Origin: Amphiura filiformis
Taxonomy: Eukaryota
Reading direction: 5' to 3'
DNA length: 64,000 bases
Assembly (NCBI RefSeq): GCF_039555335.1
Contig: NC_092647.1
Coordinates: 18,628,946 to 18,692,945 of the forward strand
Part shown: positions 44,619-63,278 of the stretch, piece by piece
How the letters are laid out: the number at the start of each line of letters is the position of its first letter
Position numbering within the stretch: the stretch's first letter is position 1
Notes under the pieces: model-generated
What the model saw: the letters and a program-made list of their open reading frames with translations, nothing else
What the model was told of the DNA's origin: nothing
Database searches by the model: none
Position numbers and translations under genes: made by a program

Positions 44619-45276
44619 ATATTGAGCCCCTCTCTCTAACATATTATCACTATGGACCACAATGGCCTCATCCCAATGGCATAGTTCAATAACCTCAATG
44701 AAACAATCAAAGTGTAAAATTTGACCTCAAGTTGCAGAGTACGAGTTTTTGTACACAAATTTTTAAAGGTCATTCAATGAATGTACAACTGTATTGGGGT
44801 TTAAGAACTGTGCCCTGATAGATGAACATGTTGTGAATCCTAGTGTTTACTCATCATTTTGGACTTTTTTAGTTATTTCCAACTAGGAATTTTCCAGGGT
44901 GTGAAATCTCGCCCTAATTCAAAAGCTTAAATGCAGCCCAAATATGAGAACGTGTCCCAAATATGAGAATGTGTCAAATATAATAGAGACAAGAATGTAT
45001 ACCATTACAATAGTGCATTGCGGGAAATTCTCAGAAAGGTCTACGCGCAAAATGTGATCCTCGGAAAACCCCAAGTTTACATCTTAATACATTTCGATTC
45101 ATTTGCATTGTAAATAACTTGGTTCTCAATATAAGACTTTGACAGGTGACAGTGACCCCGATAATGGAATGATCGCACCTTTTCTGTACAGCGGCTTTGG
45201 AGATTACTTCTTGAGTTGAACATTGAGATGATTCTCTGCTTACTCCCTCTCCTTCATTCAGAGGAATGATTGCGTC

Positions 45277-45351
45277 CTACTTATTTAGGGGATCAAAGTC
45301 CGCCAATGAGAAGTTCTCTGTTCCTAAGCTTAAGCCACGCTCAAAGCCCTC
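45277..45351 (-). CDS. Candidate terminal coding exon (EGFERGLSLGTENFSLADFDPLNK, then a stop)
   Basis: On the minus strand a strong acceptor (tctcttttttttcag|gagggc) opens a phase-0 frame that runs 24 codons to TAG. Phase 0 matches the phase-0 donors of the tandem exons upstream. The evidence is weak because it rests on a short ORF and a splice-site motif only. Confidence 0.25.
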   Translation of the reverse strand, partial: EGFERGLSLGTENFSLADFDPLNK

Positions 45352-46039: not shown

Positions 46040-46126
46040 ATAAACTTACCTGCATTTCCTTCATCTGATTATCCATATAGAGTTGACCTGAGCTTGCAGG
46101 GGATCTGATCAGGTCTCCTGCTGCTG
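46040..46126 (-). CDS. Tandem-duplicated exon copy a (QGRPAAGDLIRSPASSGQLYMDNQMKEMQ), 87 nt, phase 0-0
   Basis: On the minus strand: acceptor cccccag|caaggg, donor gcag|GTAAGT. It has a single open frame. It differs from copy b by a 24-nt in-frame deletion. Confidence 0.45.
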
Positions 46127-46181
46127 GTCTCCCTTGCTGGGGGCTGGATCATAAGAAGGGAGTTTAACCCTAACCCTGAGG

Positions 46182-46292
46182 ACAAACTTACCTGCATTTC
46201 CTTCATCTGATTATTCATATAGAGTTGATTGTCTACATCCATGAAGAATTGACCTGAGCCTGTAGGGGATCCGAATGGGACACCTTCTGCTG
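46182..46292 (-). CDS. Tandem-duplicated exon copy b (QGRPAEGVPFGSPTGSGQFFMDVDNQLYMNNQMKEMQ), 111 nt, phase 0-0
   Basis: Acceptor …ccgtcag|caagg, donor aatgcag|GTAAGT. Only one of its three frames is open. Confidence 0.5.
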
Positions 46293-46357
46293 GTCTTCCT
46301 TGCTGACGGCTGGATCATAAGAAGGGAGTTTGACCCTAACCATGATGACAAACTTAC

Positions 46358-46464
46358 CTGCATTTCCTTCATCTGATTATCCATATAGAGTTGATTGTCT
46401 ACATCCATGGAGAATTGACCTGAGCCTGTTGGGGATCTGAACGGGTCACCTTCTGCCTCCCTTG
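46358..46464 (-). CDS. Tandem-duplicated exon copy c (…AEGDPFRSPTGSGQFSMDVDNQLYMDNQMKEMQ). It has a 4-nt deletion near the 5' end, so an alternative acceptor 8 nt downstream (ggag|gca) is needed to keep phase 0.
   Basis: The same donor CAG|GTAAGT. It has a unique open frame encoding the conserved peptide. The acceptor position is uncertain, so this may be a decaying copy. Confidence 0.4.
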
Positions 46465-46519
46465 CTGGGGGCTGGATCATAAGAAGGGAGTTTGACCCTT
46501 ACCCTGGCGATTAACTTAC

Positions 46520-46633
46520 CTGCATTTCCTTCATCTGATTATCCATATAGAGTTGATTGTCTACATCCATGGAGAATTGACCTGAGCCTGTTGGGGATCC
46601 GAACGGGTCACCTGCTGCTGCGGCTCTCCCCTG
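46520..46633 (-). CDS. Tandem-duplicated exon copy d (QGRAAAAGDPFGSPTGSGQFSMDVDNQLYMDNQMKEMQ), 114 nt, phase 0-0
   Basis: Acceptor cagcccccag|cagggg, donor aatgcag|GTAAGT. Single open frame. The intron separating it from copy c is only 55 nt. Confidence 0.5.
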
Positions 46634-47015
46634 CTGGGGGCTGGTTCCTGAGAAGGGGGCCTGCCCAAAAGGGTCGCTTGCAGCTCCACCCGACCCTGTT
46701 TAAAGAAATTTAAAGGCATAGTTGTGAACCTTTGTTTAAGTGATAACAATCAAAAATGAGTGACTTATTAAACAAATGAACATCCATTTTAGAACTCTGA
46801 TAAAATCAGAGACAAGCACAATCAGGCATGAGACTGCACTTTCCTAAAAAAACAAAAAAAACTGAAAATGCGCGTGAAATTGGGCAAAAAGTACCAAAAA
46901 CAGGCTGAAATTAAATAAAGTTGCGGAAATTTTGACTATAAAAAAAACTGAATTCAGTTTTTAAACTGAAAATTCTCATGCCTGCACAATTTTGACCTTT
47001 GCCGTTTTATCTTAA

Positions 47016-47981: not shown

Positions 47982-48053
47982 CCACGGGTCTTGCAATTGA
48001 GCCTGGTGTAGTCCCTGCTCTACTCCTGGTTGATTTAGGTGGTGGTGCAATCC
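47982..48053 (-). CDS. Candidate exon D of a minus-strand Pro-rich gene (G|IAPPPKSTRSRAGTTPGSIARPV), 72 nt, phase 1-1
   Basis: Acceptor tgtatgttgcacag|gg, donor cccgtgg|GTAAGAat. The Pro-rich frame needs a 1-nt carry-in, which exon C provides. Confidence 0.4.
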
Positions 48054-48514
48054 CTGTGCAACATACAGACAAACACACAATCAAATCAATATACGCATAT
48101 ATACAATATAGGATAGAATATGATAACATCATTTTCGATTCGCCAGTGAAGTGTTACGTGTAATCCTATTATCACCATGTCAACTGGATCATGCTTTTGA
48201 GTTCTGCAATACAAAGTCTATGGCATGTATTATCAATTCCAAAAGGTGTGTGAACCAGCTACCAGGGAGTTACGTAACCATTTCGCTGGCGGATAGCCTA
48301 TAATTGCCCTGCTTAAGTGACAGTTTTACAACCATGGGCCCTAAACAAGAGCACCAATGGCGCTGTGGCTCTGTGCTTTTTTGAATGTGAAAGTAATTGC
48401 AGTCGAATGTGCAACAGGTGAAATCATATACATTGTATGTGCCAGATCACACGCAATCATACATCTTGCTGGTTGGTAGCTATATCTTATTTGCAGAGCA
48501 TAATACATCCATCA

Positions 48515-49290
48515 ATAAGTTTCATATCCACATGAGGTTTTAGTAATTTGACCACAGATGACCCCTGAGTGACCTTGGATGACCCCAAAATGACATTCCA
48601 AAATTTGGCTTGAAATGTTGACTGTACCCACCAAGTTTCATGCCCATGCGAGTTTTTAGTAACTTAACCTCAGATGACCCCTGGGTGACCTCGGATGACC
48701 CCGAAATGACCTTCCAAAAATTTGACTCTAAATGTTGACTGTACCCAGAAAGTTTCATGCCCATACAACAGTTTTTAGTAATTTGACCTCAGATGACCCC
48801 TTGGTGACCTCAGATGACCCCAAAATAACCGTCTGAAAATTTGACTCTAAATGTTAAGTGTACCCACCAAGTTTCATGCCCATACAAGTTTTTAGTAATT
48901 TGACCTCAGGTGACCCCTTGGTGACCTTGGATGACCCCGAAATGACCGTCCGATAATTTGACTCTAAATGTTGACTGTACCCACCAAGTTTCATGCCCAT
49001 ACGAAGTTTTTAGTAATTTGACCTCAGATGACCCCTTGGTGACCTTGGATGACCCCGAAATTACCTTCCGAAACTTTGACTCATAATGTTAAGTGTATCC
49101 ATCAAGTTTCATGCTCATACGAGTTTTTAGTAATTTGACCTCGGATGACCCCTAAGTGACCTCGGATGACCCCAAAATGGCCGTCAGAAAATTTGACTCT
49201 AAATGTTAACTGTACCCACCAAGTTTCATGCCCATACGACAGTTTTTAGTAATTTGACCTTAGATGACCCCTGGATGACCTCGAAAGTGA
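48515..49290. repeat. Satellite of 117-118 bp unit, ~6.6 copies (…gtttttagtaatttgacctcagatgaccccttggtgacctNggatgaccccgaaatgacc…caagtttcatgcccatac…)
   Basis: Regular period between successive tagtaatttgacc motifs. Confidence 0.9.
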
Positions 49291-49384
49291 CCTTCACCCA
49301 CTAACCAATACAAACTTGTTCTGTCTGGGGTCAAGATGCACCCGCCCACCAAGTTTGAAGAATGTACGACCCTAGTCTCCGAGA

Positions 49385-50170
49385 AAAAGGTTTTTGCATA
49401 TTATGCATAAATTATGCAAATTAGGTAGGTAATTACCATATTTTGCGCTGAAAATCGAATCAGGTCGAGATCCTCTGGTCATGCTACCCCCACCACATTT
49501 CATCATCATAGGGCTTAGCATTCTTACGGATCCCCAGAAACAGCTTCACAAGGCGGATTTCTTCAGATTTCCAACCATTTTGTAGAAGCGTTCCGCATAA
49601 ATTATGCAACTTAACAACTAAGTGCGAATACTTTTAACCAAAAACTAATCAGGTGATCAGCAGGTGTGTATCATTCCTGTCACAAGGTTTCGTTACCATG
49701 CACCGCTATCAATTTGCGCTGATATTCGCATAAATTATGCAAATTAGCTTGTTAATTTGCATATTTTCACCGAAAACATACAATTACGGAGCAAACTTGG
49801 ATACCCTTCCTCCCACCAAGTAGCGTCCCCGTAGGTCTTACGGTTCCCCAGATACAGCTCCGGACAAACATTCGGACATCCCACCCCCACACACAGACGG
49901 AAATAGTGATTACTAAGTCCCATCCTGAACAAAGTTCAGAAATGAAATTTTATCAATTTGCGCTGATTTTTGCATAAATTATGCAAATTAGCTATGTTAA
50001 TTTGCATTATTTTTCACCGAAAACATACAATTACGGAGCAAACTTAGATACCCTTCCTCCCACCAAGTAGCGTCCACGTACTGCGTCTTACAGCTTCCAG
50101 ATACAGCTCCAGACGGACACACGGACATCCACACCCCCGGACAGACAGAAATACTGAGGCGAGACAAAAA
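49385..50170. repeat. Degenerate tandem array. It has two clean 236-bp units (49720-49955 and 49956-50170) and two older partial units. Each unit carries a palindromic pair of octamer-like motifs (tatgcaaattag…ttaatttgcata).
   Basis: The motif gcataaattatgcaaNtta occurs at ~49405, 49597, 49738 and 49974. The last two units align throughout. Confidence 0.75.
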
Positions 50171-52884
50171 ATGAAATTTTATAACAAATTTTTGTGACTT
50201 GAGATCATTTGCATTTTTTTGTAAACACCAAAACTGTTCTGTCCTGACATGTCTGTTGTGTCATGTGTGTTGAACCGTCCAACCGAACAATCGTAAGTTC
50301 TGTTCGGATCTGGATCTGCCTGGTCTGGATGCTGTACTCCGATTAAGCAGGACTAGCCTACATCACATCAGTGTTTATTTCTGATAGATTTCACTTCATG
50401 ATTTTTTCTTCAATTTCATCACTTACGAGAGTACAAAAGTAGACAATCTAGTAGTCAGTATAACCTCGGAGCAGTTCGTGTGAGACCTACGTACATGGAA
50501 TAGTAGTACATGGCTTCCGAATTTGGAACTTCACATGTTCAACTTGTCATGCCGGTCGAGTCCCGCGTTTACAACTAAAATCAAACCACTTCTATATTAA
50601 GTCCATCGCTGAATTTTACAAATAACTTAAATAAACATCTTTATATTTAATTAAAAAATATTATGGTATGCTCAGTAAATGCTTCGAATGACATTTACCA
50701 GAAGCTCATGAGCTCAGAATGGTAAACAAACTAGCGTATTTTCACCTCGATTATGCACCGTAGCTCTCTGTGGTTGAGTTTGCAAGGTCAGTGGGTCAGT
50801 GAACTTAGTCTCCTATGCAGCCAGTTTGGTTACGCCCCTCCACAAAAATGTTTGTGTGGAAGGGGCGGAACCAAACTGGCTGCTGTGGAGACTACTGCAA
50901 GAATCGATCAATCACACAAAACTGTTTGCTGATTGGTTCAGAAATGGTGATGTCATCAATCAAGAAAACTACTCGATTTATTGGTTCAAAATAGCCTCAT
51001 AGAAAAGTACGAAGTTTGTTGAGCATCGCAGCTTATCGGTAAAAACGTGACCTTTAACAAAAAAATCGACACAGTGCTTTCATACTGCACTTGCGCAAGC
51101 CAAATAGTCCCCCAGAAAAGTCATTTGTTCAGATTTATTCGGGAATTTATTCAAGATTCAGACATGTTCTTGACTATTTTTTGACATTCTTTACCTATCT
51201 CTTTATTTAAATTATAAAGAAATAGTGAAGAAAAGTTAAGAAGTAGTCAAATAATTTCTGATCTGAACTAAATCTTAAGAAATGTACCTCCATTGGTTTC
51301 CGCTGTATTACGCATCTTAAATTATACAGACCAGAATAATCTCTAGCACACACAGGGAACCAAGATATAACTCGATTATCGTGACTATTTTGGTCTTTTT
51401 TACCCAAAAATAATACTTTTATCGCCTGAATTTCAATAAAATCTGGAGTGCAATCGATTCAAAATAACTTAGCCAAACTTAGAAACAAAACTTAAGTCTT
51501 CATATCAGTCATTAAATGATCCTTAGCATAAAACCAACAGCGTATTGTGGCCTGAAAATGAATGCTAGTTAGTTGCATGACAAAGGCACTGATAAGCTCC
51601 GCTCAGAGCCAACAAAACAGGATAAAGGTTTATTCAGATTTCCTTTTACAAATTAAGCGTACTGCTAGCCGTCCAGCGCGTATTATTTGCACAAGGTTCA
51701 ATGCACATGCTTGACGTCGCGCACGTATATGCGATGGTTAAGCTGTCAAAGAAATCTGAATAACACTTTACACACACATATTTCCAGTCAAAGAACAATA
51801 CCATCTGATGATCTGATGTCATGTCACCTTACCTAAAGGTGGAGGAGTGCAAGGCATTCTGTAGGCAGGGTTGCCAACAAATTTCAGCCCCAATCGCGGG
51901 TCAAATAATAGAAAAGTCACCCAATTTTTCTCTTTACCATTGGTTTCTATGGGGCAGGAAACTATCGGAAGTCGCCGGAGCCAATGTTGAAAAGTCACCC
52001 TTTCTTTTTTCTTATATGGGACAGGAAATTGTCATATAAAGTCACGGGGAAAATCTTCAAAAGTCGCCCAATTCGGCTACCAAATTGCGGGTTTGGCAAC
52101 ACTGTCTATAGGCATGTATAAGCGGAGACTGATTTAAAAATACTAGTTCATACATACTCACGATATAACGACGTTTCTGATTGGATTTGGGACCTTTTTT
52201 GCTGGTCATAAATTCTGTTTATGACCAGTACGCAGGGCATAAACAAGCTGCGCCATGCAGCGTTGGAACCCAATTAACACGATCCACGATTTGCTAGTGT
52301 TGCGTACATCGCCAAGCATGTCACAGCGCCCATCTCACGCTGGGCGCAAAAGATGACGCTGAATCACGCGTTGACTCCCGGCCGCTGACCTCATGAGCCG
52401 AGCTGCTTCCTGCAAGTAGGCCTACTCATTTTCTTCCAATTTATGATGGAAAACGGTATGGAAATGTTATTTAAACTTGTAAACCCTTATTATTTTCATC
52501 TGTATTGAATTGCTAAGAATGTTGGGTATGTATGAGCGGGTTCATTCATAGGATTTCGGCATGATCGCTGTTTATGCCCTCAATCCTATGAATGAACCCC
52601 TAATTTGCGTCTGGTGTCATCTGTTAATCAAACTCAGAAATGATTTGTCGTGATGATTGAAATGTCTGAACGCTGCAGTAAGACAGCAATGCCCAATAGT
52701 CCATTTTCACCTTCAAACATAAAACCTGTCTCAAAAGTTAGATCCTTGTCATTGGAAACTTTCATTCCTAAAGGCACCATGTCAACAATGCTCAGAAAAG
52801 TTGCCCTTTGCCATTTTCTACAATTTCTTTTCTTCAATGAAGGCACCAGATGAACCAATTTCCTTTTACACCCTAATAATAATT

Positions 52885-53270
52885 GGGAGGGCGAGTTAGC
52901 GCAGCGGTAGTTCCCTCGCTTTGCACCACTGAGGTCCCGGGTTCAAGCCCCGGCGCGGCCCAAGGACTCATGTGCACTTGGTTTATCCCGATTCAATGCT
53001 CGCTCTCGCAGGTTTTCTCCGGGATCTCAGGTTTCCTCCTGTATCGCAAAAAATCGGTGATTAGTTGTTTGGTTATCAAAACTTCCTTCACCCAATGGAA
53101 TTTGGGGAGCTGCACAGATAATTGGTGGATGTTACAATCTAAATGCGGATAGGTGTGCGCCGCTCGGCAGCAACCTAGTTGATGCGATCTGATTGTGATG
53201 ATTCACCATTGCAGCGAAATTACAGCGCTTTGAGTTCTCTAAGATCTGGAGAAAGGCGCTTTATAAATCC
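52885..53270 (+). mobile_element. tRNA-derived SINE, copy B, the same family as 372-770
   Basis: Collinear alignment with copy A, including the tRNA-like head gcgcagcggtag…ccgggttcaagcccc. Confidence 0.65.
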
Positions 53271-53284
53271 TAAATTTATTTATA

Positions 53285-53635
53285 AGGGGCATTTCGTGAT
53301 CCACAGCCTCATCCCCCACTTTTCCAAAAAAAAATTGAGATTTTTACACCACTGGATACCTCTGGCTACATAATGTTTATGTACCAAATATTTCTTGCAG
53401 ATTAATTGCTTAGCAAAATAATATCGCTAAATTTGAATTTCGTTCTGGTGCACCAGAACGAAATTACAACACATTGTCTATGGAGCAGTGTAATACACAT
53501 AATCATGCATAACTCGCAAACGCAAAATCGGAATCAACTGAAATTTTGGAAATAAGCTTTTTTCGTGGATATCTACTGAAAATGTCATAAAAAGAGGATG
53601 CTAGGATCACAAAATACTCCTTTAATAACCAATCA
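53285..53635 (+). repeat. Repeat R2 copy B, directly abutting the SINE. It carries an extra ~85 bp insert containing a perfect 15-bp-stem hairpin (53436-53465, aatttcgttctggtg|caccagaacgaaatt).
   Basis: Aligned to 2851-3112, the insert falls between gtttatgtacMaaata and gtctatggagcag. Confidence 0.6.
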
Positions 53636-53812
53636 AGAGTTGTGGGGAGTTTGATTGACAGTGATGTCAGATCCAAACTATGTAAAATGTACATTTCGCC
53701 ACAGCACGAAAAAATATCACATCCATATTTGGAAACTGTCTGGATTGAACTTGACTGCTTTGGAAATAATTCCAGAGGAATTTGGTACTGCCTAAAGGGC
53801 AAGTCGGCTTAC

Positions 53813-53896
53813 CTGGTGTAACTGAGGCGGCCACTGCATGGGGTCTTGGTCTGCCGGGGGGACTGGCGGGGGTTGGTACGTTGGCACTGGGCGATC
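53813..53896 (-). CDS. Candidate exon C (G|SPSANVPTPASPPGRPRPHAVAASVTP), 84 nt, phase 1-1
   Basis: This is the best splice context in the window: cattttccttttttgctgctcttcag|gatcgcc … ttacaccag|GTAAGCcgac. All three frames are open. The Pro-rich frame is the one selected by the carry-over from exon B. Confidence 0.4.
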
Positions 53897-54471
53897 CTGA
53901 AGAGCAGCAAAAAAGGAAAATGATAAATAAGTTATGCTACAGCTAGAAATAATAGTCAATAAGACAATTCAGCTTTACATTCCAGATTCACTGTGGATGG
54001 TTTGGGCAAATTTCAGTACACCTGAACTTTGACCTGTCAGGAAAATTGGGGTTTTTTTTACATAGTATGTAAATTGTTTTACTAAAATTTAAAAATAAAC
54101 CTACCAACAATTTTGTAATCTCATAAATAATTATTCAAAAAACTTTGAATGATAACATTATTACGCTAATAAATTATTAATTAAAGCAATTTTCCCACAA
54201 TGCACTGCAAATTTGTGATGCCGAATTGGTTTATTGCTCTACTAAATCGGTTTTTACATTTTACAACTCAACACAATTCCCACGCATCATCAAAACTTGT
54301 TAAATAATTATTTTTAGTTCTAAATGAAAATAAAATCACTTCATAATCACCATGCAAATGGAAATAGATTCAAAGCATTTTGCAGGAATTGGAACAAATC
54401 CTTGCAGTAAAGTATTTAAACTGAGCAAATGAATGCCCATCATCTCAAATTAAGAGGGCTAGAGCACTTAA

Positions 54472-54680
54472 CCACATGAGAACTACCTGCCGATTGGCCA
54501 AAAAGAAGTTTTCATTATCAATTGTACCAATCAGCAACATTGTTAGAATAATTTCACCACGCACAAAATTGGGGTGAATTATTTGCAAAGCTCCATTCTG
54601 ATTGGTGATTAAAGTGAAGATATCACGTAATTGACCAATCAGATGCAATGTTAGATCGGCAGGTAGTGCTGGGTGCTTTA
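54472..54680. mobile_element. Family P piggyBac-like MITE, copy 2, with its right end degraded
   Basis: TTAA at 54468-54471. ~85% identity to 47016-47212. Confidence 0.6.
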
Positions 54681-55236
54681 TTATAAATAAATGCATATCA
54701 CTTGTTGGGAACGAAATTGTACAAAATAATGCATGTGTACTGAGATGTTGATGCATCTAAACATTAGATGCACCAACATCTCAGTACAGGTGCATTATTT
54801 TGTACAATTTCTTGAGCAAGAAGTGATACGGCTTTATTAACATATTTCATACACAAGAAAAAAAATTCCATAATTTTTGCTATTTTTATAACGAAATTGT
54901 CAGTAAAATGATGGAAAATAAAAGCAAATATAAATGCTTCAACCCGCAAGAAAAATGAACGGGTCCGAAAGCAATGCAAGTAGTACACAGAGTGTGCACC
55001 CGTGCATATATACACAATCAATGCATGGTTTGCATTTTTCTAACGCTTGCTTTGATTGGTTCTAGCTATCTAAGAGTGTATCAATTATCAATACATTAAA
55101 AGCATTACAAATTAAAATTTTTAAAAAAATGCAATGAAAAGACAGAAATTATGTTTGCGTGTCCACCATGAAAATGTATATGCATATGATAATTTATGGC
55201 ATAAAATCATAATATTTGTAGCAATCATGTTATTAT

Positions 55237-55466
55237 TAATGCTCTGCATGCTAGTATAGACTTAGAAAAAAAAATCAAAATTTCAAGTTATTTTCTCAAC
55301 ATGTCAAAAGCTATTTTAAGAACTACTGAACCAACACTAGGCTTGTTTGTACTCATTTTAATGCATTTTTCATGATGATTCCAAATGTGGTCATGAAAAT
55401 GTAAAGTTCCACAATTTATGAATTTATTTAAAGAAAATTTGAAACTTGTCGTCTGCAGTCGACACC
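55237..55466 (+). repeat. R3 repeat copy 3
   Basis: taatgctctgcatgctag … cgtctgcagtcgacacc, collinear with the other R3 copies. Confidence 0.6.
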
Positions 55467-55556
55467 CGTGTGGAGAGAGATAAATGACAATATCCATTGA
55501 TTTAAGAAATAATGGGATGTTGTCATCAGCAGGCTCAGCAGCTGCAGCGCAATATG

Positions 55557-55835
55557 GTATGAGGTTTGCTTCCTATATGTGACATGATCAAGGGGAATGA
55601 GTCACATGTCGGCCCTGGTCGAAAATGAGTTTTACACATGCCTCTAAACAGGGCATTTAGAGCTTTCAGAAACTGAAAACCCCATGTTGATATGACTTTT
55701 CATTGTGAAGTTATGTCAAATTATCAATCGCTGAAAACAATATAAAACAAAACAATTTTAACACTTTCTTTGCCAATATCTCAAAATCAATATTAGCGAC
55801 ATCCGACTCATTTCCCTTGATCGTGTCACATATGA
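55557..55835. mobile_element. MITE with termini tatatgtgacatgatcaaggggaatgagtc / gactcatttcccttgatcgtgtcacatatg, a diverged member of the 3411/62423 family
   Basis: ~30 bp inverted termini. It abuts a family H copy at 55843. Confidence 0.5.
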
Positions 55836-55842
55836 CAAATTG

Positions 55843-56018
55843 GCCTATTCCAGTTGAAATCCACATACCCCATATGGAAGACATGTCCTTAATCTCTCAC
55901 ACAGGGAGTGTGAATTTCAAATGGAGCCACACAACTCCTTTGAAACGTACATCCCATGTGTGGAAGATTAAGGTAATGTCTTCCATAGGGGGTGTATGAA
56001 TTTCAATTGCATTAGCCC
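55843..56018. mobile_element. Family H dimer copy
   Basis: cctattccagttgaaatccacatacccc … gggggtgtatgaatttcaattgcattagccc. Confidence 0.7.
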
Positions 56019-56151
56019 AATGTACAAAATGTAAAGTTTGAATGCCTCAAAGTTGTTTTTTGCCTAGAAAAAGTATCAATATCATTCACCATTTTGTGCA
56101 ATTCCTTTTCTCCAATAAAGGCACCAGATGACATATTTGGTTAGTACCTCC

Positions 56152-56385
56152 CTAAAGTTTGTTCGGTTTATATAAGGCAGAAAAAATAAGACTCATAACA
56201 CCATGTATTGATATAGAATGATGTGCACGCTGTTGGGCGCAATGCTTACGCTAGTTGTGCGTTGCGTAATGCGTGGCGAGTGCACGCTTATGTGAATTTA
56301 GGCGAGCTTGAGTTGGCACTTTATTGAAGCGTGCAGTAACAAAAGCCAAAAAATTTCCGGCTTATATAAGCCGAACAAACTTTAG
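56152..56385. mobile_element. MITE with termini ctaaagtttgttcggtttatataagg / ccggcttatataagccgaacaaactttag
   Basis: ~26 bp inverted termini. The interior is CpG-rich (gcgttgcgtaatgcgtggcgagtgcacgc). Confidence 0.5.
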
Positions 56386-56896
56386 TTATGCACAACTGAC
56401 CAATTACAGGCCGGGTGGAGATGGAATGACAAGTGATGTTAGATGCAACATTGCAATCTTCTCTCTGAATCAGGGTTGTAGCTAGCCAAATTTTACTGCC
56501 AGCTAAAATTAAGAGAATGCCAATTACTTGACAGTAATGGCATTTGACAGTTGTTTTTAGGATAATTTTTCATTCTAGCACTGGTATGCAAGACCTACAA
56601 TTCCCTTGAGTGCCGGTCGGTCATGCTGAGTACTGGATACTGCCGACCACCGTGGCTACAACCCTGCTCTGCATCCAACTTAAATTGTGTTCATTTACAT
56701 CATGATGAGTAGTTTTGTTTTCCCAAAATCCCAATTTAACAAATTCACCTTCTTAAATTATAGCAAGTTATAGAGTTAAACATGAAGTTAGTATTCAGAA
56801 CCTACATACAGGTGGAAACAAAATATGGAACAAAACATGTCTGTGTGCACAAACAAAAAACAAGAAAACAAAACAAACTAGTACACAGTATCAACT

Positions 56897-57226
56897 ACCG
56901 TATTCATTCCAATAAGCGCCCAGGGTGCTTAACAAATTCATTATGGGTGAGCACTTATTTTTTACATGGTTTTCCCAAATTTTTTCCTAACAGGTGTTAC
57001 TGTTTATTAGGCGTTATCGTATGTTACTAAAGGGTCCTGAGACGTTCTAGTCGCTTTTCTGATGCAGAAAATACATTACATGTTTACACAGGACTTCTAA
57101 TCCCCCAGCTATTTCACTGTATCGACGTCTATCCGTCACTTCAACATTAATGGTACCCTTAGCAAATTGAAATTACCCTGGGTGGGCGCTTATTGGGACA
57201 TGGGCGCTTATTGGAACAAATACGGT
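56897..57226. mobile_element. Long member of the accgtatt…ccaataagcgccca MITE family, related to 36118-36259
   Basis: Its termini accgtattcattccaataagcgcccagggtg / caccctgggtgggcgcttattgg…aacaaatacggta are inverted repeats. Confidence 0.5.
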
Positions 57227-57827
57227 ACATATCATTACTAAACACACATAGTAATAACATAATTGCATAATAGATACGCATAGTCTTACACCCTTTGGAA
57301 TCTATCCCAATTTGTGTGCAAGACACTGTTATTCACTCTGATATAGTTATACCAGTTTTACCCCAGTAATCAGTAAGTCCATGCTGTACAGGGTATTCTT
57401 GCAAGTAAAGGGTTATAGACCAACAATTCACAGAGGCAACAATTCATGACATTGGGTGATAGCTGACACCAGCAGCATAAGTATCAACAATTACAACTGC
57501 AATCAGTTTGTTTTCTCTCTGTCATAAGACCCTGTCACCAATTGTTTTCCATCAAATAGCAGCAATTTTGTGCTTTTCTAATGACACACCGGATCGAGGG
57601 CATTTGCAAAGCATACACGGTCATTAAATCATGCTTATGAAAGGCACACACACTAAACGTGTTTCATCAATTTGGACCTTCACTTCACAAGTAAGCTCAC
57701 CTACCCTTACAAATAAAATAAAACACAAATGAACACAAAAGCATGCCATGAATAGAATCAATGCAGGCAGACTCCAAGATTCAGTTTAGTTACATAATGC
57801 ACACCACGATCATGAATTGGGTAATTC

Positions 57828-58002
57828 CAGTTGAAATCCATACACCCCCTATGGAAGACATGTTCTTAATCTTCCACTGAAAGAGAGTGGATTCTAAATG
57901 GAGTTACCTGAATGTGCGACTACATTTGAAATCTACACTCCCAGTGTAGAAGATTAAGGTCATGTCTTCCACAGGGGGTGTATGGAATTCAACTGGAATT
58001 GC
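57828..58002. mobile_element. Family H dimer copy
   Basis: gtaattccagttgaaatccatacaccccctatggaagacatg … gggggtgtatggaattcaactggaattgcc. Confidence 0.7.
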
Positions 58003-58088
58003 CTGTTGTGATTATCTTGGGATGACGAGGAAAGTAAAAGCTGAAAAATGACAAGATTGGAGCTAGGAAATACGGATTATACTATACC

Positions 58089-58219
58089 AGTCACAACCGG
58101 GGTCATGCCCGTCACAACCGGAGTCACAACAGCCTTCTTAGGGCTCTGTGCAGTATCGGGTGGTAAAGGGTGTGTTTGTGCTCTACGTCTTTTAGAAGAT
58201 GGAGGTGGGGGAGAGATGG
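58089..58219 (-). CDS. Candidate exon B (A|ISPPPPSSKRRRAQTHPLPPDTAQSPKKAVVTPVVTGMTPVVT), ~131 nt, phase 1-1
   Basis: Acceptor ctattactcttttctcag|cc. The donor is weak (gactg|GTATAG). Only one frame is open. That frame needs a 1-nt carry-in, which exon A's unique frame supplies. Confidence 0.4.
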
Positions 58220-59442
58220 CTGAGAAAAGAGTAATAGACAACACACAATAGACACATATATATATAAAAAAACTATTCTCTAAAGACAACTTGGATTGCT
58301 ACTATTTGATGACTGCTGGCTGCTTTGGCAAACATCTTATCATATAGGATTCACAACTTATAGTTCCCCCAATGCTTTTTGAAATAAATCAAAAAAATAT
58401 TTTAGGAAATGTAAAAATGTAAAACGGCATGTGTAGCGTCAGACATCACTGCATTCAGTCACAAATTGTTCATTATGTAAAGAAAGAGGTTGTTTTAAAA
58501 GTTGCACCTGAGTCAGTCCCACGCATGAATAGGTAAGACCTCCTGTATTGTTTGAGAGTTGACTCCCACGAATATTCAGATGCAACATTTAAAACTGCCT
58601 TTTTTTACATAATGAACCACTGTTACTGAATACAATGGTGTGTGATGATATAAATTAGTCCATGTGTACAAAACAAATAAAGCTACACATGCCATTTTTA
58701 CACTTTTGTAAAATATTTTTCCATTTATTTCAAAAAGTGTTGGAGGCGGGAGGGGGCTTATAAATTGTAAAACAATATAAATACATCAAACAAAGTCTCT
58801 ACTTCATTCAGTGGTCATAAATTTGAGCACAATTTATTAAAAGTAAATAAAATCTAGATGGAGGAGTGCTGTAATATGTTACCACAGTTGTTTAATAAAA
58901 AGAAGTCGGAATGACAGAGAAATTAACGAGTGAATGACATTCAAAAAGTTGCAGCATGTGTTTATCTGCCTGTGGTCAGTAAAGGAAGCTTAGGTCAGTA
59001 ATTGAAGTTCAGATTCATTTGGTACAAAGGGACCTAGTGGGCAAATTGGACCACTAACAAAGCAATAATGCTGAAAAATGAACAATAAACTTTTCAATTA
59101 AAACCAAAACTGAAAAGTGAACAATAAACTTTTCAATTAAAACTAAAACTGAAATTTGAAATGGTAGTTGGCTACGCTGGGCGGTGGCGGGCGGACCTGC
59201 CCGGCACTCTTAATTTCCACTCGGCACTCAAGTTAATTTTGAGCCCAAAACCCAGCACTCCAGTCTCAAATGTTTCAAAATCAATGAAAAATCAATATAA
59301 AAACTAGCAATTCTTATCAAAATTTCAATTTTTTTACCATTTCATATAAATTTCACCCGGCACTAAAATTTGCCTAGCTATAACCCTGGTAGTTAGCACC
59401 CATACATGTAGACATTGAAGACTTTGTGCAAGCTAAGGGATC

Positions 59443-60078
59443 TGGAATGAGCGTTTTGAGCATTTCGATAGTATTTTTTGTGGGACATGAGAGCACATCA
59501 GACATATCGAATTGCATTCTGAATACGAAGAATGCCTTTCTGATATCAAATAATTCTCATTTTATGAAATTTACGATATAATACAAATTTTATGACAAAT
59601 TAATAAAATTTGATATTTTTCACATTTTTGAGATATAACAGTCCTCGAAGTAAATTTTATAAATTTAATGATATATTCTTAAAGTGTATGTAGCTGGGAG
59701 GAAAAGCCGACGATCAATTGAAAATTGAAAGATAAGGATTTTTTTCCCAAAAAGACCTTTTTTATTTTGGTGTTTTGGGAAAAAAAATCCATATCTTCAA
59801 TACGAAAGGTCAAAATTTGCAATTGATCGTCGGCTTTTCATCCCACCTATATCTTCTTCAAATATAAATCATTAGATTTATAAAGTTTACTTCGAGTAAT
59901 GTTAAATATCAAAAATATCAATTTTTAATGATTTGCCATAAAATGTGTATTACTTTGCGAATTTCAAAAAATCAAAATTATTTGATATCAGAAGGCCATT
60001 CTTCATATTCAGAATGCAATTCGATATGTCTGATGTGCTCTAATGTCCCACAATAAATACTGCCCAAACGCTCATACC
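59443..60078. mobile_element. Foldback element of ~635 bp with ~250 bp inverted arms and a palindromic ~110 bp centre
   Basis: The left arm ggaatgagcgttttgagcatttcgatagtattttttgtgggacatgagagcacatcagacatatcgaattgcattctgaata… is mirrored by the arm at 59830-60078. The centre aaagccgacgatcaattg…caattgatcgtcggcttt is itself palindromic. Confidence 0.8.
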
Positions 60079-60467
60079 CCTTCCTTAATTCTTTTTATAT
60101 TTTAAGAAATTTGTAATTTTATGTACAAAATATAGTATGTGAAAGTACATACAATTCATATGTGAAAAGTTGAACTACAAAGTATTCCTGAAACATGCTA
60201 TTAAAAAGGCCAAAACATAAGCACTTAAAAAAGAAGGCAAGCTAGGTTTCACATCAAATGTCTTTATTTTAGTAAAAGAAGGAGCTACAGTGGAAACTCA
60301 TTATAACGAAGTTGTCAGGGACAGAGAAATTAGTTCTTTATATCCAAATTTTGTTATATCAGGGTTGTAAAAACAATATATAACAAAAGAATTTTGTATC
60401 TTGGTTCTAGAAAAATACTTCTTTATAACAGGGTTTTTCTTGTTATAATGAGGTTTTACTGTATTAT

Positions 60468-60648
60468 AATTCCAGATGAAATCCATACAATCCCCTATGG
60501 AAAACATGACCTTAATCTCACACACAGATGCAGTTTTCAGATGGTGTCATCCATTCAGGTAACCCCATTTCAAATTCACACTCAATGTGTGAAAAATGAA
60601 GGTCATGTCTTCCATGGGGAGGTGTATATATGGACTTCAACTTGAATA
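60468..60648. mobile_element. Family H dimer copy
   Basis: ataattccagatgaaatccatacaatcccctatggaaaacatgaccttaatctc … gtgtatatatggacttcaacttgaat. Confidence 0.65.
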
Positions 60649-61195
60649 ACTGGGGAGGGGGCAGTGGGGCTCATAGTGGAAACGAGGGCAAGGGGATGTG
60701 GATTTGGGGTGAATTTTCTATTTTCAGCAATTTAGTTTAAGACTCTGGGTGTAATTTTAGCCATTTCGATTTTTGATGGCCCTCAATTTCATACAAATTG
60801 GTTTAAGAAATGGTGTTTTTTCACAATTTTCTTGAAAAAGTGCCAATTTTGCATCATTTTTTTAAGCAAAATTTGCAAAATTTTCCCAAAAATTGGTATA
60901 ATTTTGGGTCCGATTTTCGTCAGATTTGGTTTAAAGTTGGGTCGTTTTTCGGAGCCCCAGCCACACATCCCCACCCAAACCAAAGTTGATAATAACCCCC
61001 CCCCCACACCCGGGTGAATAGCCCAGTAAATGTCACAGCAGTCAGTCACATCAAATAGCACCCAATCCAGATACACACAACAATAACAGGTGCACAAAGT
61101 TTGGCAAGTTAATATTGCAGTGCAGTCATGCTTTCTATTGATAAAGACATGGCTTGGTCTCGTATCACTACACATGCATGCACTATATTTACAAT

Positions 61196-61500
61196 GGGAG
61201 ATTCCAGTTAAAATACACACCCCCTGTGGGAAAAGTTGACTGCCAGCTCAATTCCAATTGCACCTAGCTGGAAATGTGAACTTACAGCTAAAATTTCATC
61301 GAAATTTATCAAATCCAGCTAAATTTAGCATAACTTTGCCTAAAATTAGACATATTTTGCTTGGAATTCCAAAATCTTCGACACCTTTTCCAATTTTTAA
61401 GGATGAATATGGTAGGATTTGGAATAATTTAGACTGCTGAATTTGGTTGGAATTTCAAAATCTTCCACAGTGGGAGTGTGTTTATCAAATGGAACAGCCC
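61196..61500. mobile_element. Family H long variant, with its internal ~200 bp homologous to 37812-38010
   Basis: Termini gggagattccagttaaaatacacaccccctgtggg … atcttccacagtgggagtgtgtttatcaaatggaacagccc. Confidence 0.6.
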
Positions 61501-61603
61501 AACACTTGGCCATGCATTTTCACTGCTATTGCTATACAGTGGTTTTTACGGGCCTTGTCAAATCCTTCAGCATATATTATACTGATGTACAGGAGTGTAT
61601 TAA

Positions 61604-61810
61604 CCCCATGACAACTACCTGCCGATTGGTCAAAAAGAAGTTTTCATTATCAATTGGACCAATCAGCAACATTGTTAGAATAATTTCACCACACAAAAGA
61701 ATTGGGGTGAATTATTTGCAAAGCTCCATTCTAATTGGTGATTCAAGTAAAGATACCATGTAATTAACCAATCAGAGGCAATGTTAGATCGGCAGGTAGT
61801 GCTCAGGGGG
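61604..61810. mobile_element. Family P piggyBac-like MITE, copy 3, with perfect TTAA duplications
   Basis: TTAA at 61600-61603 and 61811-61814. TIRs ccccatgacaactacctgccgat / atcggcaggtagtgctcaggggg. Confidence 0.7.
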
Positions 61811-61948
61811 TTAACACTAACATACATAGAGAAGTACTGGCAAATGCGAATAGCAATACACTATTACTGTGGACACACATGTTGCGTTTTTGTCTCATTT
61901 TCCGCTGAAAGTTCCAGTTTTTACCACTGAGTGTGGACTGACACTATG

Positions 61949-62132
61949 CGCTATTCCAGTTGAATTCATTACACCCCCTATGGAAGATGTTACCTGAATT
62001 TCCCACACAAGGGTGTATATTTCAAACAGAGTCACCCATTCAGGTAACTCAATTTGAAATTCACACTCCCTGTGTGGAAGATAACAGTTATATCTTCTAC
62101 AGGGGGTGTATGCATTTCAACTGGAATAGCCT
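61949..62132. mobile_element. Family H dimer copy
   Basis: gctattccagttgaattcattacaccccctatggaagatg … gggggtgtatgcatttcaactggaatagcc. Confidence 0.7.
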
Positions 62133-62422
62133 CATTGAGCATACACTGTCATGCTTGATTCATGCACTATGATGCATTTCTATTGCATTCCTATACCTTA
62201 TACTGGATCTACAAAATTATACTGTAAATACAACAGTAAATCTCATTTTGTTCACAGCACCAAACATGTCCATGAATTTTGTAAATTTGAACTAAATTTT
62301 AAACTAAAAATTAATGCGCCTTCAAACATTCTAGATTGAATAATTAATAATCACGGATGACTAAATATCTACGCTTCTACAAATCTATGTGCCACAATCA
62401 GGGTATAGGCTTGTATCATGCA

Positions 62423-62697
62423 TAATTGCATATGTGATGCGATCAAGCAAAATCAGTCGGAACTCGGAAATATTGATTTTGAGATATAGCCAAACAAAGG
62501 TAATATTTCCTTTTGTTTCCTATTGTTTTGGAAACTCTTTAATAGCTCATATCTTTGGAACTGGTTGTTCAATTTAAATGGGCTTTTCTGCAAAACTCAG
62601 CTTTGGAAATGCCTTTTACTGTCCTATAACAAACTGAAAATTAATATTTCCGAGTTCCGACTGATTTTGCTTGATCACATCACATATGTGTTAGTCA
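62423..62697. mobile_element. MITE of the atatgtgatgcgatcaagcaaaatcagtc family, 275 bp
   Basis: ~45 bp near-perfect TIRs (catatgtgatgcgatcaagcaaaatcagtcggaactcggaaatatt / aatatttccgagttccgactgattttgcttgatcacatcacatatg). Confidence 0.65.
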
Positions 62698-63073
62698 TTA
62701 GTATATGAGCCTAACAACATTCTATAAGAGAACTTCAGGATCACAGTAATCAAAGCAAACACACAACGTTTTTGTAACATTCTCAAAAAGAGCACAAAGG
62801 TTGCCACAAAATGCTTAAATGTCGGGTTATATAAAGATTATACAGAACGTTTTAATTTATAACATTTTCAAAGCAGTTTTACAAAGTACCACAAGATATT
62901 GTGACAAATGACATTTGAAAAAAAAAATTCCTAAAAAACATTAAATTTTGTTTCTAAAGATTGTTTAAAAACGCTTTTCCAATCTTATAATAACCCCACG
63001 TTCAAATTTATTTAAATGTTTGATTAAAAATGTTAATAATATATTTTGTATTTGCTCAGTGTTTCTTCCTACC

Positions 63074-63278
63074 TGGTACATTTGCATTTTCCGGATTTGG
63101 TTGCTTCTGCCTACTTGGTACCGTTGCGTATTCTGGACCAAGATGGCCATTTGTGGTACCGTTACCTTGTGGGGTAACAGTCATTGCGGCACCTTGTGGT
63201 GTCCCTGGTGATGGCACTCCGCTAGGGAAGGGGGCTGCTTCAAACAAATCCACTGTGGGGGGCTGACTAGGTGGCACC
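63074..63278 (-). CDS. Candidate exon A (VPPSQPPTVDLFEAAPFPSGVPSPGTPQGAAMTVTPQGNGTTNGHLGPEYATVPSRQKQPNPENANVP|g), 205 nt, phase 0-1
   Basis: A long polypyrimidine tract plus AG (ttttcccttttgtgtttgtttgtttgtttgtatgtatacctatctatgggtcag|gtgccacc) on the minus strand. Donor gtaccag|GTAGGAag. The other two frames contain stops. Confidence 0.4.

What the first reader, a model, noticed from the sequence alone, without database searches (positions are those of the whole stretch)
47982..63278. Candidate minus-strand Pro/Ser/Thr-rich multi-exon gene with MITE-filled introns of 4-6 kb
Four short open segments on the minus strand (63278-63074, 58219-58089, 53896-53813, 48053-47982) each have a polypyrimidine-AG acceptor and a GT donor. 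Their reading phases chain together:
- Exon A has one open frame and ends with a 1-nt overhang.
- Exon B has only one open frame, and it requires exactly that 1-nt carry-in.
- B, C and D all have lengths that are multiples of 3 (phase 1-1 symmetric exons).
- The Pro-rich frame of D again requires a 1-nt carry-in.
The encoded segments are uniformly low-complexity Pro/Ser/Thr/Ala-rich, for example ISPPPPSSKRRRAQTHPLPP and SPSANVPTPASPPGRPRPH. The introns carry family H hairpin MITEs, two tRNA-derived SINEs and satellites. Phase continuity into the tandem exon array at 46.6 kb is not achieved with the obvious acceptor. So either this is a separate gene from that array, or an exon is missing.
Basis: partly seen in the sequence, partly recalled or inferred. 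Interest (0 to 1): 0.6.

Follow-up and report, generated by a model that had tools for sequence, protein, structure and literature searches.

The report
Tail exons of a GULP/CED-6 gene
The four proline-rich segments are real exons, but of an ordinary gene: they encode part of the flexible tail of an invertebrate GULP/CED-6, a well-known adaptor that helps cells swallow dead cells, and the gene ends inside the window.

Summary
The four minus-strand segments exist as described, within 1 nt. All have AG/GT borders, and their phases chain: A 63277-63073 (0->1), and B 58219-58088, C 53896-53813 and D 48053-47982 (each 1->1). Exon E (46695-46520, 1->0), which heads the "tandem array", joins D in frame. 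A terminal exon F (45351-45277, TAG stop) follows.

Exons A, B, E and F have orthologues on three contigs from marine and other metagenome assemblies. Those contigs keep the AG/GT borders. Exon lengths differ only by multiples of 3, and dN/dS is about 0.25.

The tail aligns collinearly with vertebrate GULP1: D-L/I-F, DLF/DPF, EMQEGFxxGL, DPL, stop. BLASTP gives E=7e-6 and 2e-4; hhalign gives 4e-5. A bird GULP1 gene has the same intron positions and phases. So this is the disordered C-terminal, AP-2/clathrin-binding tail of a GULP/CED-6 orthologue. The PTB and zipper exons lie beyond position 64000.

B, C and D are symmetric cassettes sitting in the conserved phase-1 intron. B and D are paralogous. 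C has only intrinsic support.

The 166-bp array is a lineage-specific duplication of the 3' end of exon E plus 29 nt of intron. Whether its copies are used is unknown. This is an ordinary gene of low novelty.

The parts
63073..63277 (-). Exon A, phase 0->1, 205 nt. It encodes VPPSQPPTVDLFEAAPF...GPEYATV...ENANVP and corresponds to the vertebrate GULP1 'DIF' exon.
   Evidence: AG/GT borders and a single open frame. The orthologue on L003 2242-2422 keeps AG/GT, is 24 nt shorter, is 65% identical in protein, and gives dN/dS 0.19. The bird GULP1 exon at the same place is also phase 0->1.
58088..58219 (-). Exon B, phase 1->1 cassette, 132 nt. It encodes ISPPPPSSKRRRAQTHPLPP...TPVVTGMTPVVT.
   Evidence: A strong acceptor (ctcttttctcag) and only one open frame. 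The orthologue on L002 270-383 keeps AG/GT, is 18 nt shorter, and gives dN/dS 0.34.
53813..53896 (-). Exon C, phase 1->1 cassette, 84 nt. It encodes SPSANVPTPASPPGRPRPHAVAASVTP. No orthologue was found.
   Evidence: The best acceptor/donor pair in the region (ttttccttttttgctgctcttcag ... CAG|gtaagc). GC is 0.67 against 0.33 in the flanks. The periodicity model prefers the phase-1 frame by 9 bits. It gives the top peak of the coding-likelihood scan. All three frames are open, so the open frame alone says little.
47982..48053 (-). Exon D, phase 1->1 cassette, 72 nt. It encodes IAPPPKSTRSRAGTTPGSIARPV and is a paralogue of exon B.
   Evidence: AG/GT borders. The periodicity model prefers the phase-1 frame by 11 bits. 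Its Smith-Waterman score against exon B is 45, reached by 0 of 2000 composition-preserving shuffles. No orthologue was found.
46520..46695 (-). Exon E, phase 1->0, 176 nt. It encodes GSGGAASDPFGQAPF...GDPFGSPTGSGQFSMDVDNQLYMDNQMKEMQ. This is the D[LP]F bipartite exon, and its 3' 137 nt form copy 1 of the tandem array. An alternative in-frame acceptor lies at 46647.
   Evidence: It chains in frame with D. The orthologue on L001 53-219 is 79% identical, keeps AG/GT, is 9 nt shorter, and gives dN/dS 0.37. It aligns with the human RDLFGAEPFDPF...DEMQ. The bird exon is also 1->0 and ends at the same EMQ.
46358..46471 (-). Array copy 2, a potential phase 0-0 cassette of 114 nt (PPAREAEGDPFRSPTGSGQFSMDVDNQLYMDNQMKEMQ). 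It lies only 48 nt downstream of the exon E donor. Whether it is used is unknown.
   Evidence: TRF finds a period of 166 with 3.5 copies. Alignment A1. Open 0-0 frame. The array is absent from the related locus L001.
46192..46302 (-). Array copy 3, a potential phase 0-0 cassette of 111 nt. Its DPF has decayed to VPF.
46050..46136 (-). Array copy 4, a potential phase 0-0 cassette of 87 nt. Its DPF has decayed to DLI and it carries a 24-nt in-frame deletion. A truncated fifth unit follows, down to about 45980.
45277..45351 (-). Exon F, the terminal coding exon, phase 0. It encodes EGFERGLSLGTENFSLADFDPLNK followed by a TAG stop at 45279-45277.
   Evidence: A very strong acceptor (ttgttctcttttttttcag). 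It is 92% identical to L001 1177-1251, which also ends in a stop. dN/dS is 0.11. It aligns with the human and bird last exon [23 protein letters not shown], which has the same phase-0 start.
45115..45276 (-). The conserved proximal part of the 3'UTR. The first AATAAA lies about 2 kb further on, at 43239; the true poly(A) site is not determined.
   Evidence: The blastn match L001 1166-1443 to window 45362-45115 (71% identity) runs past the stop codon. Poly(A) signal scan.

Best explanation
The finding is the 3' part of a protein-coding gene on the minus strand. The gene is orthologous to GULP/CED-6 (PTB domain-containing engulfment adapter protein 1) and belongs to an unidentified AT-rich metazoan.

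The window holds the exons for the intrinsically disordered C-terminal tail. In order they are A, B, C, D, E and F, ending in a stop codon, and together they encode 247 residues. The PTB-domain and leucine-zipper exons lie upstream, beyond position 64000.

How it works:
- Shown in the literature for fly Ced-6 and mammalian GULP, and inferred here by homology: the PTB domain docks on NPxY tails of engulfment or yolk receptors. The zipper dimerises the adaptor. The tail's D[LP]F triplets and the distal acidic/leucine-rich end recruit AP-2 and clathrin.
- Inferred for this locus: exon A carries the first DLF. Exon E carries the DPF/DPF bipartite element. Exon F carries the conserved EMQEGFxxGL...DFDPL end.
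- Inferred from sequence inspection and general motif knowledge: exons B, C and D are symmetric phase 1-1 cassettes lying in the ancestral phase-1 intron. Any combination of them can be skipped without breaking the frame. B and D are paralogues sharing the motif I[SA]PPP..[KR].RA.T.P. That motif fits a PxxP/basic SH3 ligand. It also fits an RxRxxT-x-P site for a basophilic kinase and 14-3-3.

The 166-bp tandem array is a recent duplication private to this lineage. Each unit is the last 137 nt of exon E plus 29 nt of intron. The normal transcript most likely splices from the first donor (46520) straight to exon F.
For: Gene model:
- Five exons chain into a 223-aa open frame, and exon F adds 24 codons and a stop.
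- Exon GC is well above flank GC, and the chained frame shows 3-periodicity: position 1 has G 34% and T 10%, position 2 has C 45%, position 3 is AT-rich.
- A leave-one-out frame test is correct for 5 of 5 exons.
- Exon-like loci are concentrated on the minus strand at these positions.

Conservation:
- A HMMER scan of 1.84 billion proteins returned only three hits. They are open reading frames on metagenome contigs that cover exons E, A and B. Similarity stops at the predicted splice sites.
- The orthologous exons keep their AG/GT borders and differ in length by -24, -18, -9 and 0 nt.
- dN/dS is 0.25 overall.
- blastn matches between those contigs and the window are confined to the exons, 50-90 nt of upstream intron for A and B, and the 3'UTR.

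Family assignment:
- Human GULP1 (P0004) and its named orthologues were retrieved.
- BLASTP of the composite tail against P0004 gives two collinear matches. One (E=7e-6) runs to both C-termini. The other (E=2e-4) covers the zipper plus the D-x-F motif.
- hhalign gives E=4e-5.
- The bird GULP1 gene (L004) has the same four intron positions and phases: a zipper exon 0->0 starting IQELETEN (VHELEVEN in L003), then 0->1, then 1->0 ending EMQ, then a last exon starting EGF.

Literature:
- Ced-6 orthologues consist of a PTB domain, a coiled coil and an unstructured tail of variable length. The DPF triplet is needed for AP-2 binding, and a distal acidic/leucine tract for clathrin (PMC3338440).
- The C-terminal 71 residues of GULP, which contain the DLF/DPF element, are needed for clathrin binding and for Jedi-1-mediated engulfment (PMC4055271).
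Against: - The defining PTB domain is not in the window, and I could not link it to this tail.
- The zipper exon was seen only on a related contig (L003), not in the window.
- The tail is low-complexity. Similarity to vertebrate GULP1 is confined to about 60 plus 50 residues, and the hhalign probability is only 70%.
- Pfam and PDB sequence searches found nothing.
- No annotated invertebrate GULP protein matched the tail directly.
- No orthologue was found for exons C and D.
- No transcript evidence of any kind was available.
- The three related contigs come from different assemblies and may belong to different species.
Confidence: 0.88

Rival explanations
1. This is a real conserved gene tail, but it belongs to a different endocytic adaptor or scaffold (for example of the Dab2, Numb, ARH, Eps15 or DENND1 type). 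On this view it only resembles the GULP tail because both carry short D[LP]F and clathrin-box-like motifs.
For: The PTB domain was not observed. Motif-rich disordered tails converge easily. The hhalign probability is only 70%. Pfam found nothing.
Against: - The matches are collinear and end exactly at both C-termini.
- The six-residue block EMQEGF is shared.
- A zipper-like exon directly precedes exon A in L003 and aligns with the GULP1 zipper.
- All four intron positions and phases match a bird GULP1 gene.
- There are no NPF motifs, no UIMs and no terminal SH3 or muHD domain, which the other adaptors would show.
Confidence: 0.06
2. The gene is real, but exon C, and possibly D, is not a true exon. 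On this view they are GC-rich intronic islands with fortuitous AG/GT borders. Because they are 1-1 symmetric, the frame would chain from B to E without them.
For: No orthologue was found for C or D. C is open in all three frames and D in two, so the open frame is weak evidence. The chain does not need them.
Against: - Both are sharp GC islands whose edges fall exactly at consensus CAG|G acceptors and G|GTAAG donors.
- The periodicity model favours the phase-1 frame by 9 bits for C and 11 bits for D.
- Both lengths are multiples of 3.
- D is significantly similar to the conserved exon B (0 of 2000 shuffles).
- Only two other exon-like loci, both repeats, occur on this strand in 56 kb.
Confidence: 0.2
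3. The locus is a decaying duplicate (pseudogene) of a GULP tail, and the tandem array is a symptom of that decay.
For: Array copies 3 and 4 have lost the DPF triplet. The introns are full of repeats. No annotated protein matched.
Against: The frame is uninterrupted over 247 codons and six exons. All 11 splice sites of exons A-F are canonical. dN/dS is 0.25, and the only length differences from the related contigs are multiples of 3. The decay is confined to the extra array copies.
Confidence: 0.04
4. The whole pattern is chance: open segments with AG/GT borders in C-rich DNA.
For: Pro-rich frames arise easily from C-rich sequence.
Against: Orthologous exons occur on three independent contigs and show purifying selection. 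Further support comes from the periodicity, the strand-specific clustering and the shared intron architecture with bird GULP1.
Confidence: 0.01

Closest known systems
Vertebrate GULP1 (PTB domain-containing engulfment adapter protein 1; human 304 aa, P0004)
   Same: - The order of tail elements after the leucine zipper is the same: D-[IL]-F...PF, then a Pro-rich stretch, then the D-L/P-F...PF-DPF bipartite element, then EMQEGFxxGL[ST]L, then DPL, then the stop.
- The intron positions and phases are the same in a bird gene.
- Vertebrate genes also have annotated isoforms that differ in tail length, for example 379 aa against 304 aa.
   Different: - The tail here is about 247 aa after the zipper exon, against about 100 aa in human.
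- Three extra phase 1-1 exons (B, C, D) lie in the phase-1 intron. They carry basic PPP..RxRAxTxP motifs that are absent from vertebrate GULP1.
- The bipartite element is DPF/DPF rather than DLF/DPF.
- Exon E's 3' end is tandemly duplicated four times.
Drosophila Ced-6 (517 aa; Jha et al. 2012, PMC3338440)
   Same: It is described as a PTB domain, a coiled coil and an unstructured tail of variable length. The tail has a proximal D[LP]F region needed for AP-2 binding and a distal acidic/leucine-rich tract for clathrin. That matches exons E and F here. The long tail is also comparable in size.
   Different: Binding of this tail to clathrin or AP-2 is inferred, not tested.
Other PTB-domain clathrin adaptors (Dab2, Numb, ARH)
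   Same: They also have disordered tails with DPF-type AP-2 motifs and clathrin boxes, and they work the same way: the PTB domain binds NPxY cargo and the tail binds the coat.
   Different: They lack the leucine zipper and the EMQEGFxxGL...DPL C-terminus. Dab2 and Numb carry NPF motifs, and none is present here.

Membership tests
GULP/CED-6 | N-terminal PTB (PID) domain that binds NPxY receptors | not testable with these tools
   The exons 5' of exon A lie beyond window position 64000. Only about 720 nt, occupied by a hairpin MITE, remain upstream of A. The related contigs are too short to reach the PTB exons.
GULP/CED-6 | Coiled-coil or leucine zipper directly following the PTB domain and preceding the tail | tested here: inconclusive
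   It is not present in the window (tblastn). On the related contig L003, an exon 1.5 kb upstream of the exon A orthologue encodes VHELEVENMKLRQRLVEVE.... This aligns with the GULP1 zipper IQDLETENMELKNKVQDLE (BLASTP E=2e-4). It starts at the same residue and phase as the bird zipper exon.
GULP/CED-6 | Disordered C-terminal tail with D[LP]F triplets (the AP-2/clathrin bipartite element) | tested here: met
   Exon A has VDLFEAAPF. Exon E has SDPFGQAPF and GDPFGS. All are conserved in the related contigs and align with the human DIFDMIPF and DLFGAEPFDPF. The role of these motifs comes from PMC3338440 and PMC4055271.
GULP/CED-6 | Conserved extreme C-terminus (EMQEGFxxGL[ST]L...DPL, then stop) | tested here: met
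   The window has KEMQ|EGFERGLSLGTENFSLADFDPLNK*. Human has [27 protein letters not shown]. BLASTP gives E=7e-6 and hhalign gives E=4e-5, and both alignments reach the C-terminus.
GULP/CED-6 | Gene architecture of the tail shared with a bona fide GULP1 gene | tested here: met
   In Limosa lapponica GULP1 (L004) the exon phases are: zipper 0->0, DIF exon 0->1, DLF/DPF exon 1->0 ending EMQ, and a last exon starting EGF in phase 0. The window and L003 show U 0->0, A 0->1, E 1->0 and F in phase 0.
GULP/CED-6 | Physical binding of the tail to AP-2 appendages and to clathrin heavy chain | not testable with these tools
   This needs pull-down or binding assays.
Dab2/Numb-type PTB adaptors | NPF motifs (EH-domain ligands) in the tail, and no coiled coil | tested here: not met
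   The 247-aa tail contains no NPF. A zipper-like exon precedes exon A in L003.
Eps15-type DPF-repeat proteins | Many (more than 10) DPF repeats followed by C-terminal UIMs | tested here: not met
   The canonical model has only two DPF triplets and no UIM-like end. Pfam found nothing.

The most novel reading that the evidence does not exclude
In this lineage the GULP/CED-6 tail may have been rebuilt into a splice-tunable module.
- The paralogous cassettes B and D would add phospho-regulated (RxRxxT-x-P, 14-3-3-type) or SH3-binding sites that vertebrate GULP1 lacks.
- The four tandem copies of the exon E 3' end, each with an identical CAG|GTAAGT donor and an open 0-0 frame, would be used as alternative cassettes. 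These would vary the number of D[LP]F/helix modules and so the avidity for AP-2 and clathrin.
- Because copy 2 lies only 48 nt from the first donor, its use might be sterically restricted.
Probability: 0.15. Interest if true: 0.4.

Novelty: new member of a known kind. Interest (0 to 1): 0.2.

Why it matters
Mostly it shows that the first-stage call was a true gene, and it gives that gene a name and a complete 3' end.

Biologically it is a routine orthologue of a well-studied engulfment and clathrin adaptor. Two points have modest interest:
- It gives a clean example of how a disordered adaptor tail grows. Symmetric phase 1-1 exons were inserted and duplicated inside one conserved phase-1 intron, while the flanking motif exons and their phases stayed fixed between a bird gene and this invertebrate locus.
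- The private 166-bp duplication created four identical splice donors. That makes a natural test case for donor choice.

Neither point changes what is known about GULP function.

Tried and rejected
Searches that found nothing:
- Word-indexed protein searches with the A-E peptide and with the E-F peptide found no annotated protein. The first found nothing. The second found only the metagenome ORF P0001.
- Pfam and PDB sequences (only chance antibody matches) gave nothing.
- Exact look-ups of two window ORFs, meant to find the source genome, gave nothing.
- A JGI metagenome scan found no relatives. One of its six peptide patterns spanned an exon junction and could not have matched genomic DNA.
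- A literature search for the contig and sample accessions did not identify the host species.

Further exons:
- I looked for more exons in the A-B, B-C and C-D introns and downstream of F. I used GC islands, a strict splice-plus-ORF scan, a relaxed phase-0 scan and a coding-likelihood scan.
- The only other peaks were a tRNA-like SINE, a segment next to a MITE at 60712-60638 that has no usable donor, and a 247-nt repeat at 49.8-50.15 kb. I rejected all three.

Families and methods set aside:
- Before the GULP match I considered Eps15, amphiphysin, auxilin/GAK, AP180/CALM, synaptojanin, SGIP1/FCHo, Hrs, TANGO1 and ALIX-type tails from memory. I dropped them for lack of collinear similarity or because they end differently.
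- An Rfam E-value search of 45-64 kb gave only sub-threshold miRNA-precursor-like hits on MITE hairpins.
- A global-alignment comparison of exon against flank identity did not discriminate. I replaced it with the extents of the blastn matches.
Full report
**Context.** The window is AT-rich (about 36% GC) and full of satellites, hairpin MITEs and tRNA-like SINEs. It also holds an interstitial TTAGGG-type repeat. It looks like metazoan intron or intergenic DNA. The source species is unknown.

**Checking the observation.**
- Two coordinates are off by one. A is 63277-63073 (205 nt; one open frame; cag|G acceptor, CAG|gtagga donor; leaves 1 nt). B is 58219-58088 (132 nt; one open frame, which needs a 1-nt carry-in).
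- C is 53896-53813 (84 nt) and D is 48053-47982 (72 nt), exactly as given.
- All four junction codons are split G|NN. All acceptors are CAG and all donors have G at position -1 and A at +3.
- The peptides are Pro/Ser/Thr/Ala-rich, as quoted.

**Is it more than chance?**
- Exon GC is 0.54-0.67, against 0.31-0.41 in the 300-nt flanks.
- In the chained frame, codon position 1 is G-rich and T-poor. Position 2 is C-rich. Position 3 is AT-rich like the genome.
- A codon-position model trained on the other exons picks the chained frame for every exon, by 9-26 bits. This includes C and D, where more than one frame is open.
- A generic scan required a YAG acceptor with at least 12 of 20 pyrimidines, a G|GTR donor, a length of 60-260 nt, GC of at least 0.53 and one open frame. 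Outside the 22-29 kb satellite it found 7 loci on the minus strand. Five of them are exons A-E and two are copies of a repeat. It found only 1 locus on the plus strand.
- None of exons A-D belongs to a repeat family.

**Correcting the one negative claim.** It does.
- With acceptor aaacag|GG at 46695, a 1-nt carry-in reads open to the donor CAG|gtaagt at 46520. This is exon E, 176 nt, phase 1->0.
- The alternative acceptor at 46647 lies 48 nt downstream and is also in frame.
- A-B-C-D-E gives a 223-aa open frame. It contains one DLF, two DPF and three basic proline motifs.

**Independent evidence from relatives.** Word-indexed protein searches and Pfam found nothing. A full HMMER scan of 1.84 billion representative proteins returned exactly three hits. 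All three are short ORFs called on eukaryotic contigs inside metagenome assemblies.
- P0001 on L001 (ENA ERZ23486772) covers exon E at 79% identity.
- P0002 on L003 (a TARA assembly) covers exon A at 64% identity.
- P0003 on L002 (GCA_013332995.1) covers exon B at 75% identity.

In each ORF the similarity stops where I place the splice site, and the ORF then runs on into unrelated intron. At the DNA level:
- The orthologous exons keep their AG and GT borders. Their lengths differ from the window's by -24, -18 and -9 nt, all multiples of 3.
- blastn matches between the contigs and the window are confined to the exons, 50-90 nt of upstream intron for A and B, and the 3'UTR.
- Nei-Gojobori dN/dS is 0.19 for A, 0.34 for B, 0.37 for E and 0.11 for F, and 0.25 overall.

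**Extending the model.**
- L001 carries a further exon about 950 nt downstream of its exon E. Its counterpart in the window is exon F, 45351-45277. It has a very strong acceptor (ttgttctcttttttttcag|G) and is in phase 0. It encodes EGFERGLSLGTENFSLADFDPLNK followed by TAG, and is 92% identical to L001. Conservation continues into the 3'UTR to about 45115. So the gene ends inside the window.
- L003 carries an exon 1.5 kb upstream of its exon A. It encodes VHELEVENMKLRQRLVEVETSANLPKPPAYTEHNSNDQ and is phase 0->0. It has no counterpart in the window, so the window's copy must lie beyond position 64000.

**What the gene is.** The zipper-like exon, the D-L-F...PF motif, the DPF pair and the ending ...EMQEGFxRGLSL...DPL reminded me of human GULP1.
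- I tested this by searching with the recalled sequence. It is present at 100% identity (P0004). Its close relatives are named "PTB domain-containing engulfment adapter protein 1".
- BLASTP of the composite tail (the L003 zipper exon plus window exons A-F) against P0004 gives two collinear matches. Tail residues 189-284 match GULP1 233-301 (E=7e-6), reaching both C-termini. Zipper plus DLF matches GULP1 173-222 (E=2e-4).
- A profile-profile comparison gives E=4e-5 with 70% probability.
- The strongest test is gene architecture. In a bird GULP1 gene (L004, Limosa lapponica) four tail exons line up with this locus:
  - The zipper exon starts at IQELETEN in phase 0 and ends in phase 0. It corresponds to VHELEVEN in L003.
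  - The next exon (AGSVTPKSPSTDIFDMVPF...) is 0->1. It corresponds to exon A.
  - The next ((K)RDLFGAEPFDPF...DEMQ) is 1->0. It corresponds to exon E.
  - The last exon starts at EGFKMGL in phase 0 and runs to the stop. It corresponds to exon F.
- So four intron positions and phases coincide. Exons B, C and D, all 1->1, sit precisely in the one phase-1 intron.

**How it most likely works.** According to Jha et al. [quoted passage not shown] AP-2 binding depends on a DPF triplet, and clathrin binding also needs a distal, conserved acidic/leucine-rich tract. Sullivan et al. 2014 (PMC4055271) showed that deleting GULP's C-terminal 71 residues, which hold the DLF/DPF bipartite element, abolishes clathrin binding and Jedi-1-mediated engulfment.

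By homology, which is inference here, exon E supplies the bipartite D[LP]F element and exon F supplies the distal tract.

Exons B, C and D are lineage-specific or lineage-retained cassettes.
- B and D share the motif I[SA]PPP..[KR].RA.T.P. Their Smith-Waterman score is 45, reached by 0 of 2000 shuffles, so they are probably exon duplicates.
- By inspection the motif fits a PxxP/basic SH3 ligand. It also fits an RxRxxT-x-P site for a basophilic kinase and 14-3-3. This rests on motif knowledge and was not tested.
- Because all three cassettes are 1-1 symmetric, any subset can be skipped in frame.
- C has only intrinsic support. I put the chance that C, D or both are not real exons at about 0.2.

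**The tandem array.**
- Its unit is 166 bp: the last 137 nt of exon E plus the first 29 nt of the intron. There are 3.5-4.5 copies, 91-95% alike.
- L001 has a single copy, so the duplication is private to the window's lineage.
- Reading through the first donor hits TAA after two codons, so the first donor must be used.
- Copies 2-4 each offer an acceptor (..gatccag| or ..cag|) and an identical CAG|GTAAGT donor around an open 0-0 frame of 114, 111 and 87 nt.
- Copy 2 would leave an intron of only 48 nt. Copies 3 and 4 have lost the DPF (VPF and DLI), and copy 4 has a 24-nt deletion.
- I think E to F is the main splice and the copies are mostly silent. Only transcript data can tell.

**Verdict.** The "separate gene or missing exon" conclusion does not. 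The thing itself is ordinary: the C-terminal tail of a GULP/CED-6 orthologue. Membership is well supported by sequence collinearity and intron architecture, but the PTB domain lies outside the window and could not be checked. Interest is low (0.2). The only unusual features are the cassette expansion inside one conserved intron and the four-fold donor duplication.

Noticed in passing
window 22000-29400: A GC-rich block of about 7 kb (0.49-0.54 GC against 0.36 background) with very strong C-over-G skew on the plus strand (GC skew about -0.37). It is built from a degenerate 48-nt unit (CCCCTGTCCCCTCAGTAAGGACCCTTGCCACCCTCTTTGAGGCCCCAG, about 93 copies) with higher-order periods of 88-282 nt. Some sub-arrays are 91-98% alike. 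There is no long ORF on either strand (longest 170 aa), so it is probably a satellite rather than a giant repetitive exon.
   Followed up: partly
window 29761-31447 and 31797-32430: Two further satellites lie directly next to the GC-rich block. One has a 127/65-nt period (about 13 copies, 92% alike). The other has a 65-67-nt period (6 plus 3 copies).
   Followed up: no
window 35540-35577: An interstitial (CTAACC)6 repeat, which reads TTAGGG-type on the minus strand. It is flanked by 16-nt microsatellite-like repeats at 35372-35687.
   Followed up: no
window 55828-56032, 57815-58005, 60529-60647, 61944-62136, 63398-63695 (and many more outside the finding): An abundant hairpin MITE family. The arms are about 90 nt, 76-85% complementary, and separated by 14-101 nt. 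One copy ends only about 80 nt downstream of the exon B donor. In translation the copies give the recurring pseudo-peptide FEIHTPPVED..FHRG..NFKWN. Rfam gives only sub-threshold matches to miRNA precursors.
   Followed up: partly
window 52840-53210, 269-637, 42118-42433: A tRNA-like SINE family. ARAGORN calls a tRNA-Cys-like sequence at 52889-52961 (+). Rfam calls a tRNA at 42347-42404 (+), inside an inverted pair of copies.
   Followed up: partly
window 58088-58125: The 3' end of exon B contains a window-specific in-frame micro-duplication (TPVVTGMTPVVT, with CCGGTTGTGAC repeated). It accounts for the 18 extra nt relative to the orthologue on L002.
   Followed up: partly
L003 679-720: In the related species, the zipper exon ends with LPKPPAYTE. 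This is a PPxY-type motif (a potential WW-domain ligand) that is not present in vertebrate GULP1 at that place.
   Followed up: no
window 47012-47218, 54468-54683, 61600-61816: Three dispersed copies (72-98% alike) of a repeat of about 200 nt, one in each of three successive introns of the gene. The copy at 54.7 kb abuts a near-perfect 75-nt-arm hairpin at 54686-54838.
   Followed up: no
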